A stretch of 6,898 nt of DNA, taken from positions 1 through 6,898 of IMG/VR virus record IMGVR_UViG_3300029656_000038. One strand, written 5' to 3'. Source of the stretch: a virus. Its lineage: Duplodnaviria; Heunggongvirae; Uroviricota; Caudoviricetes. Numbering within the stretch: position 1 is the first letter of the stretch; every line of letters starts with the position of its first letter. A program made the translations under genes and the position numbers. The notes under the pieces are model-generated. The model did not search any database, was not told where the DNA came from, and worked only from the letters and a program-made list of their open reading frames with translations. Shown here in pieces: positions 39 through 6,898 of this stretch.

Positions 39-355
39 TTCACGGTAATACGCAGCGTTCCCGCATCATCGTACAGGCCAAGCTCACGCATCCAGAAACC
101 GCCCACCTCCGGCGGAATAACCAGCTCTGCGATAATATAATTACTGTTTCGTTTGTCCTGGCTGATTTTATTCAGCGCATGTCGCCAGACTTTATGGATA
201 AGCCCGGTCTGTCCGGCATCCGGGACAGGCAATTTACCACCGCCATCCCCGACGGCCATCGTGGTAATGTTGACCTTCCGCCCTCCCGGCGTGGTTGCCG
301 CTGCCAGCTTTGCTGCACCGGCAGTGGTGATAACGGTTCTGAATTTTGTGCTCAT
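23..355 (-). CDS. H: Tail fibre protein gpH, N-terminal 110-aa fragment; appears truncated relative to the ~670-aa P2 protein
   Basis: Translation starts MSTKFRTVITTAGAAKLAAAT..., which I recognise as the conserved N-terminus of P2 gpH. The ORF ends at a TAA at 23-25 after ...GTLRITVKEIGE; as I recall P2 H, it continues past GTL for several hundred residues. Sits immediately downstream of gene I, as in P2. Confidence 0.75.
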   Translation of the reverse strand: MSTKFRTVITTAGAAKLAAATTPGGRKVNITTMAVGDGGGKLPVPDAGQTGLIHKVWRHALNKISQDKRNSNYIIAELVIPPEVGGFWMRELGLYDDAGTLRITVKEIGE

Positions 356-365
356 TATTCCTCAC

Positions 366-896
366 TTATCCGGGGTAAACCGTAATTACATCGCCGTCAT
401 AAGCCACACCACCGGCGAACAGGTAGCCGGGAATGTCCCGGGTAATGTTCAGACCAATAAGGTGACGGCTTGCAGGTTTGGCATCAGCAATCAGCCGTTC
501 CATTTCCTGATACATTGCCTCTGTGATACCGCTTTCCAGTACACCAATATCAAGGCGGAAGGTGCCGGGCGGGTCACTGTTTTCCCACCACTCCGTCACG
601 TTGATGAGATAGCCGAGCGGCTCCACCACACGCCGGATTGCGCCGATAGTGCCTTTATGACAGTGGATGAAATAGGCATCGCGGATAACGGCGCGTTTTG
701 TCGCTTCCGGCCACTTTTCATCCCACCTGTCGACCGAAAACGCCCACGCCAGCCACGGCAGCAAATTTGCCGGGCAGGTGTCCGGGTTCCACAGCTCACG
801 AATCCTGACCGGCGTTTTTTCAATTTCCGCACAGGCTTTTGCGGCAGCAACTTCAAGCGGTGATGAGCCGGTCGGCAGCAGTCGCGAATCACTCAT
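366..896 (-). CDS. I: Baseplate assembly protein gpI
   Basis: 176-aa ORF (MSDSRLLPTGSSPLEVAAAKACAEIEK...) matching P2 gpI in sequence as recalled and in length; overlaps the gene J stop by 8 bp. Confidence 0.9.
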   Translation of the reverse strand: MSDSRLLPTGSSPLEVAAAKACAEIEKTPVRIRELWNPDTCPANLLPWLAWAFSVDRWDEKWPEATKRAVIRDAYFIHCHKGTIGAIRRVVEPLGYLINVTEWWENSDPPGTFRLDIGVLESGITEAMYQEMERLIADAKPASRHLIGLNITRDIPGYLFAGGVAYDGDVITVYPG

Positions 897-1797
897 CCGA
901 GCCTCCGGTCACGACGCGGTATTCGGTGCAGAAAGACGCCTGCGTACTGTTGAGCACGATGTCGGCCAGTGGTGCGGCCAGCTCGACACGCTGCACGCCT
1001 TCCACATGCAAAGCGGCATAAATGGCAGACAGACGGATGTCGCGCCCCAGCCGGTGCTGTGCCGTGATGTACGCTTCCAGTTTTTTCACGGCAGCAGCGC
1101 GGATGGGTTCGCTTTCGGGACCAGGGTAAAGGTAAAGCGTGGCGTTTATCTGGTATTCAACGATGGCGGCAGACTGCACGGTCACGCGGTCGGCCACCGG
1201 CCTGACGTCCTCACCATTAAGGGCGTTACGCACCACGGCCAGCAGGTCTTCGGATGCCACACCGTTATTTTCACGTGACAGCACAGAGATGGTGACGCAG
1301 GCCGGAGACGGACTGGTGACAGAGATATCCGCGACGCGCCCGTCGGCACTGCGACCATGATACTGATAGGCACCCACCGACCCGGCGACGCTTAAGCCCT
1401 CAAACGCCTGCTGAATACGCAGACGATAATCGGTGTCAGACTCCATCACTGCCGGTGTCGGCGGGATAGTCGAATCATCTGCCGGGGTGATAATCAGGCG
1501 CGTGGTGTTGTAATTGGCACCAATCACATCAAGGTCATTACCCGCGGCACAGGCCAGCATCACCGCCCGTGCGGCCTCATTCACACGCTGACGCCAGATA
1601 AGCTCACGATAAGCATTTTCCTCCAGCAGTTTGACGAGAGGCTCGGATTCCAGCGTCAGGGTACGGGCGACCGCCTCCTGCTGGTCTTCCGGGTAAAGGG
1701 AAATCAGTGTCGCCTTGCGTTCGGCAAGAATGGTTTCAAAGTCCAGCTCCTCGACCACATCCGGTGCAGGTAGCTGGTTCAGGTCGATAATCGGCAT
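889..1797 (-). CDS. J: Baseplate assembly protein gpJ
   Basis: 302-aa ORF (MPIIDLNQLPAPDVVEELDFETILAERK...) matching P2 gpJ in sequence and length; follows W as in P2. Confidence 0.9.
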   Translation of the reverse strand: MPIIDLNQLPAPDVVEELDFETILAERKATLISLYPEDQQEAVARTLTLESEPLVKLLEENAYRELIWRQRVNEAARAVMLACAAGNDLDVIGANYNTTRLIITPADDSTIPPTPAVMESDTDYRLRIQQAFEGLSVAGSVGAYQYHGRSADGRVADISVTSPSPACVTISVLSRENNGVASEDLLAVVRNALNGEDVRPVADRVTVQSAAIVEYQINATLYLYPGPESEPIRAAAVKKLEAYITAQHRLGRDIRLSAIYAALHVEGVQRVELAAPLADIVLNSTQASFCTEYRVVTGGSDE

Positions 1798-1801
1798 GGT
1801 T

Positions 1802-2149
1802 TCAACTCACAGGGATGGTTAACGAAAGTGGCTGGCCGGTGTCGTTGTGCTGGCCGGTTAACGTAACTGTCATTCGCCCGTCAAAACTGCGCTCAGTGGT
1901 GACGGATGACAGGGTGACGCGGGGTTCCCATTTCAGCACCGCCATGTAACAGGCGACCTTAATCTGCAACTCAAGCGCCGGGGTCTGCGGCTGGTCAATC
2001 ATTGACGCCAGCAACGAGCCGTAATCACGACGCATCACCCGTGAGCCGACCGGTGTGCGCAGGATATCGCCGATACTCTGGCTGATATGCTCAAGGTCAG
2101 TGACAGTCAGGCCATCACTGCGATTCATTCCGAGATAACGCGCTGTCAT
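1802..2149 (-). CDS. W: Baseplate wedge protein gpW (T4 gp25-like)
   Basis: 115-aa ORF (MTARYLGMNRSDGLTVTDLEHISQSIGDIL...) matching P2 gpW; overlaps the V stop by 4 bp. Confidence 0.9.
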   Translation of the reverse strand: MTARYLGMNRSDGLTVTDLEHISQSIGDILRTPVGSRVMRRDYGSLLASMIDQPQTPALELQIKVACYMAVLKWEPRVTLSSVTTERSFDGRMTVTLTGQHNDTGQPLSLTIPVS

Positions 2150-2781
2150 AGAGGGCTCCCGGTTGTGCCGCCGCTGTCGCCGGGGTGTTTATGGGTATGC
2201 AGTACCTTACCGTTTGATGAGAGTTCACCGCCGGTGTGTTCAATGTTGCCGCGCATCGTCCCGCCCTTCTGCACTTCCAGCGTGCCGGTAATCAGCCTGT
2301 TGGTGCAGACCACCTCCGGTGTGTCCAGGGTGACGCGGGTTGATGCTTTCACCATGACCACCGGCACCGTGGCAGTAACAGAATCAGAAGCCGTCACGCT
2401 GGCCGTTTTAATTCCGCTTACCGTGAGTGCACTGGTTTCGGGTTCATACTCAATCACCGCCCCGTCAGGGAAACGGATATGCAGGGCATCCGCCGACGCA
2501 GACGGCGCGGGGTTATCGCCGGAATAAATCCCCGGCAGAACAAACGCCGTGTCAAGTTCACCGCCCACGGCCAGAATCAGCACCTGTTCCCCCACGGACG
2601 GTGCCCACCATGTGCGCGAACGTCCGGCGCGATGGGTCAGCCACTGCAGCCAGTCGGTACACATGCCGCCGGTCTGCACACGGCAGCGACCGGCGTTAAG
2701 GTCGGTTTCGACGATAATGCCGGTGCGGATCATGTTGCGCAGTGCGCGCGCGAGTTCCTGAATATTTGCGAGAGTGTTCAT
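2146..2781 (-). CDS. V: Baseplate central spike protein gpV
   Basis: 211-aa ORF (MNTLANIQELARALRNMIRTGIIVETDLNAGRCRVQTGG...) matching P2 gpV in sequence and length. Confidence 0.9.
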   Translation of the reverse strand: MNTLANIQELARALRNMIRTGIIVETDLNAGRCRVQTGGMCTDWLQWLTHRAGRSRTWWAPSVGEQVLILAVGGELDTAFVLPGIYSGDNPAPSASADALHIRFPDGAVIEYEPETSALTVSGIKTASVTASDSVTATVPVVMVKASTRVTLDTPEVVCTNRLITGTLEVQKGGTMRGNIEHTGGELSSNGKVLHTHKHPGDSGGTTGSPL

Positions 2782-2793
2782 AACGGGAAGGAT

Positions 2794-2815
2794 GCCGCCG
2801 GGTCATACCGGCGGC
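2794..2815 (-). promoter_or_regulatory. GC-rich stem-loop in the S-V intergenic region (8-bp stem GCCGCCGG/CCGGCGGC, 6-nt loop), 12 nt upstream of the V start codon
   Basis: Perfect inverted repeat read directly from the sequence at 2794-2801 and 2808-2815. It lies in the only sizeable intergenic gap (2782-2847) of the block, where the P2 late promoter for the V operon is expected. No U-tract follows, so it is not a canonical intrinsic terminator. Confidence 0.3.
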
Positions 2816-2847
2816 AATGTGACGATGAGGTGTCAGGAATGGCACAA

Positions 2848-3300
2848 CTAACGGTCGAGGTGAGCCAGGATAATCTCTTCAATCATCTGCACATCCTCAC
2901 CGGTAAAGCCGAGCAGAGGACGCGCCGGATAATCAATTTTCTTACCGTCCTTCCGGGTTTCTTCCGACAGACCGAACTGATGCACACTGGCTATTTTCGG
3001 TGACTTCCCGCCGTAAAACTCCATTGATGCCTGTTCAGGGCTGGCGCGGATATGCAAAAAACGACTGGTGATAAGTTTCGCAAACATTTTTCGTTTAACG
3101 CGACCGGTCTTTTTTCTGGCGCTCTGCTGCTGGCGTGGTGCGTAGGGTGTGCCGTCCGGGGCTTTCTGTGCCATCACCCGGCGTTGCTGACTCTGACGCA
3201 GACGTTTCGCCAGTTCGGCGCTCAGTCGCCGACGCCCTGACGGTGACAGCGATTCAATCAGTCCGGTCAGCCGGTCTTCAAAACGCTTAAACTCATTCAT
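2848..3300 (-). CDS. S: Tail completion protein gpS
   Basis: 150-aa ORF (MNEFKRFEDRLTGLIESLSPSGRRRLSAELAKRLRQ...) matching P2 gpS; overlaps the R stop by 8 bp. Confidence 0.9.
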   Translation of the reverse strand: MNEFKRFEDRLTGLIESLSPSGRRRLSAELAKRLRQSQQRRVMAQKAPDGTPYAPRQQQSARKKTGRVKRKMFAKLITSRFLHIRASPEQASMEFYGGKSPKIASVHQFGLSEETRKDGKKIDYPARPLLGFTGEDVQMIEEIILAHLDR

Positions 3301-3760
3301 CCCACTTGCTCACCAGTTCGCCATTGATATAAAGCTCCATCGGGCGGGTGACCGGCTCCGGCGGCGGAGGTTCCGGGATATTCTTCACATGCAGTGCGCC
3401 GTCAACCTCACTGACCAGCGTGCGCTCGGTCAGCATCAGACTGATACTGATATCAAAGCTGCTGTCATTGTTGATGTCTGCATAAAACGTGAAGCCCTTT
3501 TTCTGGCCTGCGTCGGTGGTCATTATGTCGGGCTGATTTTCCCGCAGCCACGCCAGCACCGGCACGATGAGCAGGTCAAAATCACCGGTAAAATCGGTCA
3601 CAATGACATTGAGCGTGTAACGCTTTTCGAATGACAGCGACGTCGCCAGTGTGGAGGCAATACTCCCGTTATCCACGAATATCCGCAGCATCTCGGGGCT
3701 TGTTTTCAGCACCGTGACGGCATCAGTCAGCGCCCTGCGCAGGCTGTCGGGTTTGAGCAT
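3293..3760 (-). CDS. R: Tail completion protein gpR
   Basis: 155-aa ORF (MLKPDSLRRALTDAVTVLKTSPEMLRIFVDNG...) matching P2 gpR in sequence and length. Confidence 0.9.
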   Translation of the reverse strand: MLKPDSLRRALTDAVTVLKTSPEMLRIFVDNGSIASTLATSLSFEKRYTLNVIVTDFTGDFDLLIVPVLAWLRENQPDIMTTDAGQKKGFTFYADINNDSSFDISISLMLTERTLVSEVDGALHVKNIPEPPPPEPVTRPMELYINGELVSKWDE

Positions 3761-4013
3761 CGGTTTCGTCCTGACAGTGTTTAATCATTTTTACCAAGCT
3801 GGCACAGCGTGCCAGCGCGTTCTCAAGCTGCCGGATATCGGCACTTAAATCGCCGTTCGTCTCCGGGTCACTGCCCGGCATCGGGCAAAGGCTCACTTTC
3901 GGGCAGGCGTTGTGGACAATCACTGGCGTCGGCGCAGGCCGGGCGCTGGTGCAACCGGCGCACAGCATCAGGCAGGCCAGCGCCGTACCAGCGGCGAAAA
4001 TCTTCGTTTTCAT
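3723..4013 (-). CDS. lysC: LysC, Rz1-like outer-membrane lipoprotein spanin, nested out of frame in the 3' part of lysB
   Basis: 96-aa ORF (MKTKIFAAGTALACLMLCAGCTSARPAPTPVIVHN...) with a signal peptide, a lipobox-like LCAGC and a Pro-rich mature part; embedded in lysB in another frame, the typical Rz/Rz1 arrangement, matching P2 LysC. Confidence 0.85.
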   Translation of the reverse strand: MKTKIFAAGTALACLMLCAGCTSARPAPTPVIVHNACPKVSLCPMPGSDPETNGDLSADIRQLENALARCASLVKMIKHCQDETDAQTRQPAQGAD

Positions 4014-4293
4014 TCAGTAACCTCGCGATGGTTTTCTCGCGCTGTGCTTCACGCTTCGCGGCGTTCTCCAGTTCCTGACGCAGTGCCACCTGCGCCAGCT
4101 CGTTTTTGTCTGCTCTGGTGAGGGCAACATGAAGCTGATTTTTCAGCATGGTGATGGTCGTCTGCTGCCCGCTGGCGACGCTGTTCGCCCTGTCCAGTGA
4201 GGTGCGCAGGCTGGCATTTTCATGCTTCACCAGAAACAGCCCCGGCACCGCCAGTGATAACAACACAACCAGCACCGTCATCAGCTTTGACAT
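3868..4293 (-). CDS. lysB: LysB, Rz-like inner-membrane spanin
   Basis: 141-aa ORF (MSKLMTVLVVLLSLAVPGLFLVKHENASLRTSLDRANS...) with an N-terminal transmembrane segment followed by a charged, helix-prone region; matches P2 LysB. Confidence 0.9.
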   Translation of the reverse strand: MSKLMTVLVVLLSLAVPGLFLVKHENASLRTSLDRANSVASGQQTTITMLKNQLHVALTRADKNELAQVALRQELENAAKREAQREKTIARLLNENEDFRRWYGAGLPDAVRRLHQRPACADASDCPQRLPESEPLPDAGQ

Positions 4294-4706
4294 GGTTCCC
4301 GCCCCTCAAAACGCTGACGGCAGGCCGTACGTATCAGCCGGAAAAACAGCGACGCCACAAGATAAATCAGCGCAGTAAAAATCCACCCGGCAGCGACCAG
4401 CGAGATAAACGTCGCCACCATCACTACCAGAGCCACTGACCGCCTGCGCCACGGCACCGGCTGCAAAAACAGCGCCGTGACAATCTTCACGGCCAGCGAT
4501 TCCGGCGGCAGCTCCCGCCCGTAGCGTTCCAGCACATACTCAGTGGCATACACGCCGACACCACCGGCAACCACACAGATAACCGTCGCCAGAATTGCCC
4601 AGGCAGCGACAAAACTGACAGCCACGCTCTGCGGGTAAATCAGGGACAGTGCCAGCATCAGCGCCAGCGACACGTTCAGCATCAGTGAAATGGATAATTT
4701 CTTCAT
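4281..4706 (-). CDS. lysA: LysA, multi-pass membrane protein that modulates lysis timing
   Basis: 141-aa hydrophobic ORF (MKKLSISLMLNVSLALMLALSLIYPQSVAVSFVAAWAILATVICVVAGG...) matching P2 LysA; lies between K and lysB as in P2. Confidence 0.88.
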   Translation of the reverse strand: MKKLSISLMLNVSLALMLALSLIYPQSVAVSFVAAWAILATVICVVAGGVGVYATEYVLERYGRELPPESLAVKIVTALFLQPVPWRRRSVALVVMVATFISLVAAGWIFTALIYLVASLFFRLIRTACRQRFEGREPCQS

Positions 4707-4720
4707 GGTGTTTACTCCGT

Positions 4721-5218
4721 TTAAGCCGGTACGCCGCCAGCGGTACGCCAGACGGTGACCAGTTTTTCCAGTGAATGCTCACGCTGACCGTAACCGGCAC
4801 CCGGCAGGGACGCCCAGATATTGCGACAGCGTGAAATGGCGCGCTCAATGCGTCCCGCCCGGATGTCATCCAGTGCACCGCGTTCGCGGATCAACTGAAT
4901 GGCGAGTCTGTCCTGTGATAACGGACTGAAATCCGGCAGGGCAAGCTGTTTGCGGTAGTGCGGCCAGAACAGGTAAAGCTGCTGATAGCGACCGGAGGCC
5001 GTGGATTTTTCACCGCGACGGTTAAACACCTTCGCCGGTCGGCCATGTGCGAACGGGTGGTCACTGTAGTCGGTGAAGATTTCCGGCTTCCCGTCCAGTC
5101 CGGTGACTATCACGTCATAGCCCCGGTTTTTCGTCAGCGGGTGATTCGCCGTCCCTTCGGACACGGCCAGCATGTCGAGAAAGGCCGCGATATTCTGATG
5201 CGTGTTAATAACCGGCAT
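4721..5218 (-). CDS. K: Endolysin gpK (phage lysozyme)
   Basis: 165-aa ORF (MPVINTHQNIAAFLDMLAVSEGTANHPLTKNRGYDVIVTG...) matching P2 gpK; its start overlaps the gene Y stop. Confidence 0.9.
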   Translation of the reverse strand: MPVINTHQNIAAFLDMLAVSEGTANHPLTKNRGYDVIVTGLDGKPEIFTDYSDHPFAHGRPAKVFNRRGEKSTASGRYQQLYLFWPHYRKQLALPDFSPLSQDRLAIQLIRERGALDDIRAGRIERAISRCRNIWASLPGAGYGQREHSLEKLVTVWRTAGGVPA

Positions 5219-5499
5219 TACTGTTTCCCCCTGCCCTTAAAGCGGCGCTGAATGGCAATCTCAATCACCTGATAACCGGCGATACCCAGCATGGAGCCGA
5301 TGCCGCACACCGCAGGCAGTGACAGGTCAGGAAACTGCACCAGAACAACACCGGCAACCATCGAGACAAAACCACCGAGCAACATGCGCCCGATAAACAG
5401 ACGCGGGGTGATGGGTTCACCACCGGCAAGCACCTTGCCGACAACAATCAGCACTCCAATCATGAAAAGCGACAGGACGCTTTTTTCTTCTGCTGTCAT
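5218..5499 (-). CDS. Y: Holin gpY
   Basis: 93-aa ORF (MTAEEKSVLSLFMIGVLIVVGKVLAGGEPITPRLFIG...) with hydrophobic transmembrane segments and a basic C-terminus (RRFKGRGKQ); matches P2 gpY. Confidence 0.9.
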   Translation of the reverse strand: MTAEEKSVLSLFMIGVLIVVGKVLAGGEPITPRLFIGRMLLGGFVSMVAGVVLVQFPDLSLPAVCGIGSMLGIAGYQVIEIAIQRRFKGRGKQ

Positions 5500-5502
5500 G
5501 CG

Positions 5503-5706
5503 TTACTCCCACAGATTGACAGTTTCAGCCACGGGCGCGGTCTGAACGTCGGGCAGTTCGACGGCGGTGCCGTGCGGCAGCACCGCACCCAGTTCAGCCA
5601 GTCCCGGATTTGCGGCGAGCACGGTCTCAACCACGCCCTCAGTGCGCCCGTAATACCGGACACAAATGGCGTCGAGCGTGTCGCCCTGTAGCGCAAAGGT
5701 CTTCAT
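5503..5706 (-). CDS. X: Tail protein gpX
   Basis: 67-aa protein MKTFALQGDTLDAICVRYYGRTEGVVETVLAANPGLAELGAVLPHG... matching P2 gpX. I take the ATG at 5706 as the start rather than the ORF-track start at 5775, because that ATG overlaps the gene L TGA stop (ATGA) and gives the P2 length. Confidence 0.88.
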   Translation of the reverse strand: MKTFALQGDTLDAICVRYYGRTEGVVETVLAANPGLAELGAVLPHGTAVELPDVQTAPVAETVNLWE

Positions 5707-6215
5707 CAGATTTGACTCACGATGCAGCGCGGCTTGTCCTGGATACGCGCCACCGCCCAGCGCATATCCCGCCACAGTTCATCAATGGTGCTGTCAATGC
5801 TGTCGGCCTTCTTGTCGCCTTTCGCACTGGCATCCACGCCGCGGTAACGCTCATAAAGCGACGCGGTCGCCATCGCACACACGGCGCGCTCGTAGTAAAA
5901 AACTTTGATGCTTTCACCGTCGATGTCGTCCGCCGGAACGTCCGCCAGACGCGTAAAACCGGCGGCAATTTTCTGTTCGCGGTACTCGTACAGCTCCGCA
6001 TTCGTCTCCGCCATGCCTGACTTGATGGCCTCACGCAGACGGGCGGGGGCGACGGTCTGCTCAAGGCGCATACGTTCCCGGACGCGCTTCGGGTCGATAT
6101 CGGGAAAAAAGAACGTGTTTTTAATCACCGGCTCGTCGCCTGCCGGTTGCGGGATGACCACCGTACCCTCACCGGACACGGGAGCCTCCTTTCGCGGAAT
6201 AATCAGCGTCATCAT
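5706..6215 (-). CDS. L: Head completion/stabilisation protein gpL
   Basis: 169-aa protein MMTLIIPRKEAPVSGEGTVVIPQPAGDEPVIKNTFFFPDID... matching P2 gpL. The ATG at 6215 is preceded by a GAGGT Shine-Dalgarno; the upstream extension to 6275 would begin at GTG with no ribosome-binding site, so I reject it. Confidence 0.88.
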   Translation of the reverse strand: MMTLIIPRKEAPVSGEGTVVIPQPAGDEPVIKNTFFFPDIDPKRVRERMRLEQTVAPARLREAIKSGMAETNAELYEYREQKIAAGFTRLADVPADDIDGESIKVFYYERAVCAMATASLYERYRGVDASAKGDKKADSIDSTIDELWRDMRWAVARIQDKPRCIVSQI

Positions 6216-6314
6216 GACTACCTCTGAAAAGTCGGGCGGTGGACGCCGGTGCAGTGTCAGGTGATTCACCCTCACTGACCGGCGTGCCGCCCTGGCGCGG
6301 GGCGCATTCGGTTG

Positions 6315-6825
6315 TTAACTGGCTTTCTTTTTCGGGCGTCCACGTTTTGCCGGTGTCACGCTCCGGGTCTTACGCGGGGTACGGGTGGCCGCTTTGGGCT
6401 GCGGCTCCGGCTTCGGTTTCAGCTCCCGCTCCAGTCGTTCAATCTCTTTTTTGACGCCTGCCTGACAGTCGAGCTGTGTCGCACGTTGCAGGTGAGCCAG
6501 CGCACCGGCGGCATCACCACCGTCACGCAGAAACAGACCGGTGATTTTGTGCAGCTTTGCGCGCACTTCATCAGGCATGTCAGCAGCGGCAGTCAGTTCA
6601 AGGGTCTCCGTCAGCAGGCGGGTATCCACAGACTCACCGGCCGCGTGGGCGCGCATGGCCGCAAGCGCTACCTCCTCGGTGAACATGTACGGCGGGGTGC
6701 GGCGGTGTTTACCCGGCATGGTCAGACCGTACTTCAGGGCATAACGGGCAATCTCCAGCGCACCGGCAATATCGCCGGTATCCAGACGCCACAGCATGAC
6801 CGTCATCAGAATGTCATCCTGTGCG
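6315..6825 (-). pseudogene. M: Terminase small (endonuclease) subunit gpM, C-terminal ~169 codons only; 5' end interrupted by a mobile-element insertion
   Basis: Translation AQDDILMTVMLWRLDTGDIAGALEIARYALKYGLTMPGKHRRTPPYMF...KRGRPKKKAS matches the C-terminal two-thirds of P2 gpM (about 247 aa as I recall). Upstream of codon A (6822-6824) the reading frame runs into IS10-end sequence; the native N-terminal ~75 codons are absent from the window. Confidence 0.85.
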
Positions 6826-6898
6826 CTGATGAATCCCCTAATGATTTTGGTAAAAATCATTAAGTTAAGGTGGATACACATCTTGTCATATGATCAAA
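6826..6898 (+). mobile_element. IS10 (Tn10) outside end, partial; the element extends beyond the right edge of the window
   Basis: Sequence CTGATGAATCCCCTAATGATTTTGGTAAAAATCATTAAGTTAAGGTGGATACACATCTTGTCATATGATCAAA matches the IS10 outside-end terminal sequence as I remember it. It begins exactly where the gpM homology stops. Confidence 0.8.

What the first reader, a model, noticed from the sequence alone, without database searches (positions are those of the whole stretch)
6826..6881. Chimeric ORF starting inside the IS10 end and fused in frame to the gpM C-terminus; IS10 outward promoter faces the downstream genes
The ORF track shows a 188-aa reading frame whose first 19 codons (MCIHLNLMIFTKIIRGFIS) are encoded by IS10-end sequence and run in frame into gpM at codon A (6822-6824). 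IS10 carries an outward-directed promoter (pOUT) near its outside end, and the element is oriented so that pOUT points into M-L-X-Y-K. Read-through from pOUT could therefore express an N-terminally truncated gpM and the downstream head-completion, lysis and tail-completion genes independently of the normal late regulation.
Basis: inference. Interest (0 to 1): 0.45.

Follow-up and report, generated by a model that had tools for sequence, protein, structure and literature searches.

The report
IS10 insertion splitting a prophage terminase gene
An IS10 insertion sequence has recently landed in the small-terminase gene of a P2-like E. coli prophage; the "chimeric gene" across the junction is an expected by-product that is unlikely to be translated from the proposed start, and outward transcription from IS10 into neighbouring genes is a long-known effect, so the finding is ordinary.

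Summary
Window 6826-6898 is the first 73 nt of the IS10 outside end, identical to IS10 of R100. It abuts codon 79 of P2-type gene M (small terminase, 247 aa). A 188-aa minus-strand ORF (6315-6881) runs from an ATG inside IS10 in frame into gpM 79-247.

- The orientation is right: RNA-OUT lies on the same strand as M'-L-X-Y-K. Read-through from pOUT into adjacent genes is established in the literature.
- pOUT itself is not in the window. Its -10 hexamer is IS10 nt 128-123, and the source metagenome contig stops at nt 123.
- The in-frame fusion is a 1-in-3 chance event, because only one outward frame of the IS10 end is open.
- ATG 6881 has no Shine-Dalgarno. It is fully base-paired in the RNA-OUT stem and shares its context with the weakly translated transposase start.
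- Gene callers instead chose the internal ATG at 6806 (163 aa).
- The fragment lacks 78 residues and a third of its Pfam domain, so it is probably non-functional.

The most likely net effect is loss of DNA packaging plus polarity on L...S, with at most weak constitutive transcription. This is a known kind of event and of low interest.

The parts
6826..6898 (+). IS10 outside end, nt 1-73 (terminal inverted repeat region). The element continues beyond the window's end.
   Evidence: 73/73 identical to IS10 on R100 and about 2,700 other plasmids. The source contig L004 extends the identity to nt 123.
6871..6898 (-). [quoted passage not shown] The full RNA would span window-equivalent 6940..6871.
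   Evidence: Rfam RF00240 model positions 43-70, 29.1 bits, truncated by the window's end. The full-length match in source contig L004 9..78 scores 98.8 bits against a gathering score of 41.
6315..6881 (-). 188-aa chimeric ORF: 18 2/3 codons from IS10, then gpM residues 79-247.
   Evidence: The start codon has no SD and is buried in the RNA-OUT stem. The product is not on record in public gene calls.
6315..6825 (-). C-terminal fragment of P2-type gene M (small terminase / terminase endonuclease subunit), codons 79-247 plus the stop codon.
   Evidence: 100% identical to the intact gene in E. coli O25:H4 18044. Pfam PF05944 profile 44-130/130. 99.6% identical to 'M: small terminase subunit' of phage 299.
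6315..6806 (-). 163-aa internal-start ORF (MTVMLWRLD...), the product gene callers actually assign to the truncated M.
   Evidence: On record from 7 contigs, including the source contig. AGGA lies 10 nt upstream and the SD duplex energy is -4.1 kcal/mol.
6817..6825 (.). Presumed 9-bp IS10 target site, TCCTGTGCG.
   Evidence: Matches 4 of 6 specified positions of NGCTNAGCN. Only 41 of 736 9-mers in intact M match as well or better. The duplication on the far side of the element could not be checked.
5706..6215 (-). Gene L (head completion), the first intact gene downstream of the junction.
   Evidence: Pfam PF05926. Gene calls in L004 and L001.
5503..5706 (-). Gene X (tail protein X).
   Evidence: Pfam PF05489..
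5218..5499 (-). Gene Y (holin).
   Evidence: Pfam PF04550..
4721..5218 (-). Gene K (endolysin, glycoside hydrolase family 24).
   Evidence: RefSeq annotation of the 100%-identical prophage. No Pfam hit at E<=0.001.
2848..4706 (-). lysA, lysB, lysC, R and S, the remainder of the PO late operon downstream of the insertion.
   Evidence: Gene calls and annotation. Operon layout from PMC3931495.

Best explanation
A copy of IS10 (alone or as the end of Tn10) transposed recently into gene M, the small terminase subunit, of a P2-like prophage of a human-gut E. coli. The window shows the outside-end junction.

The 188-aa 'chimeric ORF' exists because the one open outward reading frame of the IS10 end happens to be in phase with M. 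It is a mechanical by-product and is most likely not translated from ATG 6881. That codon lacks a Shine-Dalgarno and sits paired in the very stable RNA-OUT hairpin. If any truncated gpM is made, it more plausibly starts at the internal ATG 6806, and it should be inactive because 78 N-terminal residues are gone.

The main consequences are as follows.
- Loss of DNA packaging.
- Disconnection of M'-L-X-Y-K-lysABC-R-S from their Ogr-dependent promoter PO (inferred from the known polarity of IS10/Tn10 insertions).
- Possibly a weak, constitutive trickle of transcription into these genes from pOUT read-through, limited by Rho (inferred from published behaviour of IS10).

Shown here: the identities, junction, frames, orientation, RBS and structure features, and the recency of the insertion. 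Inferred: the presence of an intact pOUT beyond the contig end, read-through, polarity, and the phenotypes.
For: - IS10 identity and RNA-OUT orientation.
- Clean break at the exact IS10 terminal base, next to a target-like 9-mer.
- gpM identity and fusion point.
- One of three outward frames open.
- No SD at ATG 6881 (+0.5 kcal/mol, the same as the IS10 tnp start at +0.4, with the shared ACAAGATGTG context), while ATG 6806 scores -4.1.
- ATG 6881 has P(unpaired) 0.00 inside the -23.9 kcal/mol hairpin.
- Gene calls record the 163-aa product, not the 188-aa or 181-aa ones.
- The phage part is ~100% identical over 6.8 kb to intact prophages, so the insertion is recent and nothing else has decayed.
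- The junction is absent from 5,426 complete E. coli genomes, species-representative genomes, IMG/VR and JGI metagenomes.
- Literature on pOUT read-through and the RNA-OUT 3' end.
- P2 operon layout.
- RefSeq treats an analogous IS-split M as a pseudogene.
Against: No expression data exist for this locus. The rest of IS10, including pOUT and the transposase gene, and the far junction are not in the contig. A truncated or rearranged element, or an adjacent deletion, therefore cannot be excluded. Leaderless-like or standby initiation at ATG 6881 cannot be ruled out by computation. The opening-energy estimates for ATG 6806 (17.9 kcal/mol) are about as unfavourable as for ATG 6881 (19.2 kcal/mol) in the 300-nt fold, so ATG 6806 is favoured mainly by its SD and its partly unpaired start codon.
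Confidence: 0.85

Rival explanations
1. pOUT read-through produces an mRNA on which the 188-aa IS10-gpM fusion is translated from ATG 6881. It expresses L, the lysis genes Y/K and the tail-completion genes R/S at biologically meaningful levels, independently of Ogr.
For: The orientation is correct and there is no intrinsic terminator between pOUT and the IS end. pOUT read-through at about 10% of lacUV5 and activation of adjacent genes such as acrEF and cat are reported. An in-frame ORF that was translated would protect the transcript from Rho across the 510-nt remainder of M.
Against: ATG 6881 has no SD and is fully paired in the RNA-OUT stem. Its sequence context mirrors the transposase start, whose ribosome-binding site had to be strengthened before use as a reporter. 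The stable RNA-OUT species ends at nt 47, before the junction. pOUT is not present in the window or the contig. Meaningful constitutive holin and endolysin expression would be counter-selected, yet the strain was abundant enough to assemble (inference).
Confidence: 0.1
2. The junction is an assembly artefact. A k-mer metagenome assembler joined an IS10 end to a prophage contig, and no such insertion exists in any cell.
For: The contig comes from a short-read k127 metagenome assembly. It ends 123 nt into a multi-copy repeat. The junction is found in no other collection.
Against: The join falls exactly at IS10 terminal nucleotide 1, with no overlap or missing bases. It lies next to a 9-mer in the top ~6% of matches to the IS10 target consensus. 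A contig that ends about one k-mer length into a repeat is what a genuine insertion gives. Independent IS insertions within 30 nt in the same gene are seen in complete genomes.
Confidence: 0.04

Closest known systems
IS10/Tn10 insertions that provide outward transcription of adjacent genes from pOUT (Ciampi, Schmid & Roth 1982; Simons et al. 1983; Wang & Roth 1988 - cited from background knowledge and; acrEF activation in Salmonella, Olliver 2005)
   Same: The outside end of IS10 abuts a gene within an operon, with RNA-OUT and pOUT pointing into the distal genes. There is no intrinsic terminator before the IS end.
   Different: No expression or phenotype is shown here. The insertion lies 510 nt upstream of the end of the disrupted gene. 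In the his-operon work (background knowledge) that position favoured Rho-dependent termination of untranslated read-through transcripts.
IS-disrupted terminase genes in P2-like prophages, e.g. ISEc12 (IS21 family) in gpM of E. coli D5 NZ_CP010145.1
   Same: The same gene M is split by an IS within about 30 nt of this site, leaving intact L-X-Y-K-lysABC downstream. RefSeq annotates both halves as pseudogenes.
   Different: The IS family is different and has no known RNA-OUT/pOUT equivalent. That element is complete in a finished genome, whereas here only 123 nt of the IS are assembled.
Intact gene M (small terminase subunit) of P2 / Peduovirus phages
   Same: Residues 79-247 are identical to the intact protein of a resident E. 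coli prophage and 99.6% identical to phage 299 gpM.
   Different: The fragment lacks residues 1-78 and Pfam profile positions 1-43. In the ORF they are replaced by 19 residues of IS10-encoded sequence.

Membership tests
IS10 (IS4 family) insertion sequence | Outside-end terminal sequence CTGATGAATCCCCTAATGATTTTGGTAAAAATCATTAAG... | tested here: met
   Window 6826-6898 is identical to R100 IS10 nt 1-73. Source contig L004 is identical to nt 123.
IS10 (IS4 family) insertion sequence | Antisense RNA-OUT gene near the outside end, transcribed outward | tested here: met
   Rfam RF00240 scores 98.8 bits (gathering score 41) over the full length in L004 9..78. The 3' 28 nt lie in the window at 6898..6871 on the minus strand.
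IS10 (IS4 family) insertion sequence | pOUT promoter (-10 and -35) upstream of the RNA-OUT +1 position | not testable with these tools
   In R100 the -10-like TAAAAT is at IS10 nt 128-123. The window ends at nt 73 and the source contig at nt 123. The generic sigma-70 scan did not call it even in R100.
IS10 (IS4 family) insertion sequence | DDE transposase gene and inside end | not testable with these tools
   They lie beyond the end of the contig. Only the first 16 nt of the transposase ORF are present in L004.
IS10 (IS4 family) insertion sequence | 9-bp target-site duplication at a site resembling NGCTNAGCN | tested here: inconclusive
   The flanking 9-mer TCCTGTGCG matches 4 of 6 positions, within the top 41 of 736 sites in M. 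The second copy on the far side is not assembled.
P2-type small terminase gpM (Pfam PF05944) | Full-length Phage_term_smal domain | tested here: not met
   Only profile positions 44-130 of 130 are present, and residues 1-78 of 247 are missing. This is a fragment of a member, not an intact member.
P2-type small terminase gpM (Pfam PF05944) | Sequence identity to gene M, and position between capsid gene N and head-completion gene L | tested here: met
   100% identical over 169 aa to the intact gene, which lies between the major capsid and head-completion genes. 99.6% identical to an annotated 'M'.
Genuine protein-coding gene (the 188-aa chimeric ORF) | Start codon with a ribosome-binding site in an accessible context | tested here: not met
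   The SD duplex energy is +0.5 kcal/mol, against -2.2 to -9.5 for 12 real genes. The start codon has P(unpaired) 0.00, and opening the site costs 19.2 kcal/mol.
Genuine protein-coding gene (the 188-aa chimeric ORF) | Recorded as a gene product in public gene calls | tested here: not met
   No record exists for the 188-aa or the 181-aa product. The 163-aa product from ATG 6806 is recorded on the source contig.

The most novel reading that the evidence does not exclude
The IS10 insertion converts the prophage into a packaging-dead element. Its head-completion, lysis and tail-completion genes would receive weak Ogr-independent transcription from pOUT, kept free of Rho termination by translation of the in-frame M remnant from ATG 6806 or 6881. 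The clustering of three independent IS insertions (IS10, and ISEc12 twice) within about 30 nt of gene M would then reflect selection for terminase loss, that is, prophage domestication, rather than coincidence.
Probability: 0.07. Interest if true: 0.35.

Novelty: already known. Interest (0 to 1): 0.1.

Why it matters
It matters little beyond annotation. The locus should be annotated as an IS10-interrupted pseudogene of the P2-type small terminase, not as a new fusion protein. It shows that ORF-track 'chimeras' at IS10 outside ends are expected in one of every three insertions. If pOUT read-through into a holin/endolysin cassette were demonstrated, it would be a tidy natural example of an IS rewiring prophage late genes, but the principle has been known since 1982-83.

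Tried and rejected
1. I looked for the junction elsewhere, to see the whole IS10 and the far side. It is absent from 5,426 complete E. coli genomes, GTDB species representatives, IMG/VR and JGI metagenomes. Only the ENA source contig L004 holds it, and that stops at IS10 nt 123.
2. Exact-product look-ups for the 188-aa and 181-aa ORFs found nothing.
3. I considered a second outward promoter (OUTIIp, pIII) inside the window. I rejected it, because both lie at IS10 nt 1000-1230, near the inside end.
4. I considered that RNA-OUT ends at an intrinsic terminator that would block read-through. No stem-plus-U-tract was found, although the stable species does end at nt 47.
5. I tried to mark the PV late promoter in the S-V gap with TGT-N12-ACA. 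There is no exact site there, and the 1-mismatch sites (2818-2835, 2829-2846) are no more frequent in the window than chance, 32 against 30.6 expected. The PO/PV boundary therefore rests on the literature only.
6. The C/G composition of the M remnant shows only mild C>G stretches, so it neither predicts nor excludes a strong Rho site.
7. The primary papers (Ciampi 1982, Wang & Roth 1988, Martinez-Garcia 2003, Olliver 2005) are not held in the library. They are cited only via secondary sources or as background knowledge.
8. The generic sigma-70 scan does not detect pOUT even in R100. Its position here is therefore read from the RNA-OUT 5' end plus the TAAAAT hexamer, not from the scan.

Full report
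**What is in the sequence**

The window is the late region of a P2-like prophage read on the minus strand. It runs M' (truncated), L, X, Y (holin), K (endolysin), lysA, lysB, lysC, R, S, V, W, J, I and the start of H (ORFs; Pfam; RefSeq annotation of an identical prophage).

**Identity of the two halves**

- Window 6826-6898 is identical to the first 73 nt of IS10 on plasmid R100, and it matches about 2,700 plasmids at 99% identity or more.
- Rfam places the 3' 28 nt of RNA-OUT (model positions 43-70 of 70) at 6898..6871 on the minus strand.
- ORF residues 20-188 are 100% identical to residues 79-247 of an intact 247-aa 'terminase endonuclease subunit' in E. coli O25:H4 strain 18044.
- That intact protein is 99.6% identical to 'M: small terminase subunit' of P2-like phage 299.
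- Pfam PF05944 covers only profile positions 44-130 of 130.
- The uninterrupted site reads catcctgtgcg|cctttgcc, and the window reads catcctgtgcg|CTGATGAATCCCC. The break is therefore exactly at the terminal base of IS10.
- The adjacent 9-mer TCCTGTGCG matches 4 of the 6 specified positions of the IS10 target consensus NGCTNAGCN. Only 41 of 736 9-mers in M match as well or better.
- Codon 19 of the ORF straddles the junction (two IS10 bases plus one phage base). This is a minor correction to the finding.

**Source and context**

- The window is the reverse complement of positions 51-6948 of a 7,020-bp human-gut metagenome contig, ENA ERZ918314, k127_45850.
- That contig continues only to IS10 nt 123. 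It contains the whole RNA-OUT (98.8 bits against a gathering score of 41).
- It holds just the last base of the TAAAAT -10-like hexamer, which in R100 lies at nt 128-123, 7 nt upstream of the RNA-OUT 5' end at nt 115.
- pOUT is therefore in neither the window nor the contig. Its presence is inferred from the conservation of IS10.
- The far junction, the transposase gene and any target duplication are also unassembled.
- The junction is absent from 5,426 complete E. coli genomes, GTDB species representatives, IMG/VR and JGI metagenomes.
- The phage part, window 54-6825, is ~100% identical to intact prophages in several human E. coli isolates. The insertion is therefore recent, and nothing else in the operon has decayed.

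**Is the chimeric ORF more than chance, and is it likely to be translated?**

Translating the outward strand of the IS10 end in all three phases shows that two frames are closed by stops within the last 20 codons. Only one frame is open, and it contains the ATG at IS10 nt 56-54. Any insertion in this orientation therefore has a 1-in-3 chance of giving an in-frame 'fusion'.

- The ATG at 6881 has no Shine-Dalgarno complementarity. Its SD duplex energy is +0.5 kcal/mol, against -2.2 to -9.5 for the twelve real genes of the region and -7.8 for the native M start.
- Its context, ACAAGATGTG, is the mirror image of the IS10 transposase start, which scores +0.4 kcal/mol. The two lie on opposite arms of the RNA-OUT stem.
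- The transposase ribosome-binding site had to be strengthened by two nucleotide changes before it was used as a reporter (PMC1994261).
- In a modelled pOUT transcript, the ATG is paired with probability 1.00 inside the -23.9 kcal/mol RNA-OUT hairpin.
- Public gene calls record neither the 188-aa nor the 181-aa product.
- They do record the 163-aa product that starts at the internal ATG 6806, and they do so on the source contig itself. That ATG has AGGA 10 nt upstream, an SD energy of -4.1 kcal/mol, and a start codon that is partly unpaired.
- Either product lacks the N-terminal 78 residues and a third of the conserved domain. A functional terminase subunit is therefore not expected (inference).

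**Outward transcription**

- The orientation claim is right: RNA-OUT is on the same strand as M'-L-X-Y-K. It is also trivial, because pOUT always points out across the outside end.
- The consensus scan finds no intrinsic terminator between pOUT and the IS end. The RNA-OUT stem is not followed by a U-tract, and the second AU-rich hairpin (-10.4 kcal/mol) also lacks one.
- Published work describes RNA-OUT as a 69-nt species ending at IS10 nt 47, which is window 6872 and 46 nt short of the junction (PMC5006887).
- A review that cites Simons et al. 1983 states that some pOUT transcripts extend into neighbouring genes, at about 10% of the lacUV5 level. It lists IS10 activation of acrEF in Salmonella (PMC9330008).
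- IS10-driven cat expression is discussed in PMC4574204.
- The other outward promoters of IS10, pIII and OUTIIp, lie at nt 1000-1230 near the inside end and are irrelevant to this junction (PMC11481808).
- Read-through into the operon is thus plausible and already known as a phenomenon.
- From background knowledge (Ciampi et al. 1982; Wang & Roth 1988; papers not held), such transcripts are subject to Rho-dependent termination when the remainder of the disrupted gene is untranslated. Here that remainder is 510 nt plus a 99-nt intergenic gap.
- The C/G composition gives no clear prediction either way.

**Reach of the effect**

In P2 the late operons are PO (O-N-M-L-K-R-S) and PV (V-W-J-I-H-G), both dependent on Ogr (PMC3931495). 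The insertion therefore separates only M'...S (window about 2848-6825) from PO, while V onward keeps its own promoter. I could not confirm PV from sequence, because TGT-N12-ACA has no exact match in the S-V gap. The one-mismatch sites there occur at the chance rate.

The most likely net effects, both inferred, are as follows.
- Loss of DNA packaging.
- Strong polarity on head completion, lysis and tail completion during induction.
- At most a weak constitutive trickle of transcription from pOUT.

**Rivals**

It is disfavoured by the start-site evidence and by the expected toxicity of constitutive holin and endolysin.

An assembly chimera is unlikely for three reasons. The join is at IS10 nucleotide 1 and next to a target-like 9-mer. 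A contig that ends about one k-mer length into a repeat is what a genuine insertion gives. Complete genomes also show the same gene split by other IS elements nearby.

**Comparison with the known, and verdict**

This is an ordinary IS10 insertion allele of a prophage gene. The pOUT/RNA-OUT arrangement and its capacity to transcribe adjacent genes are textbook. The chimeric ORF is an expected by-product, and RefSeq treats an analogous IS-split M as a pseudogene.

- Observation: confirmed.
- Interpretation: partly supported.
- Novelty: already known.
- Interest: about 0.1.

Noticed in passing
window 6795-6830; L003 1-45; L007 430-460 and 3000-3060: Gene M of P2-like prophages carries three independent IS insertions within about 30 nt. 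They are IS10 after codon 78 (this window), an ISEc12 (IS21 family) end 6-8 nt away in Logan contig SRR21729551_40, and a complete ISEc12 at about codon 69 in E. coli D5 and elppa10 (TSD aacgg). Whether this is a hotspot, selection for terminase loss, or coincidence is unknown.
   Followed up: partly
L002 9740-10000; L005 150-260: Two other contigs carry M split by length changes in A-runs (gcgaaaaaacg has 5 or 7 A instead of 6, and ttcaaaagag is changed to ttcaaagag). This yields the same 163-aa downstream product. They are probably homopolymer sequencing errors or frameshift pseudogenes, and they explain why that product is on record from 7 contigs.
   Followed up: partly
window 6871-6881 versus IS10 nt 103-116 (beyond the window): The proposed start context ACAAGATGTG is the reverse-strand mirror of the IS10 transposase start context. 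The two lie on opposite arms of the RNA-OUT stem, so the outward ATG is a structural echo of the tnp start codon rather than an independent feature.
   Followed up: yes
window 2790-2815 (minus strand): A GC-rich hairpin, GCCGCCGG-tatgac-CCGGCGGC, lies in the S-V intergenic gap just upstream of the V start. No T-run follows it, and the terminator scan did not call it. It may mark the boundary between the PO and PV operons.
   Followed up: no
H34, NZ_LR890693.1 10411-19768: E. coli MSB1_4E has the same prophage segment at 100% identity, but with an ISEc12 (istA/istB) inserted elsewhere within the region that corresponds to the window. This is another IS hit on this prophage lineage.
   Followed up: no
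window 4721-5218 (minus strand): The endolysin K homologue (RefSeq: glycoside hydrolase family 24) gave no Pfam-A hit at E<=0.001, although its neighbours all did.
   Followed up: no
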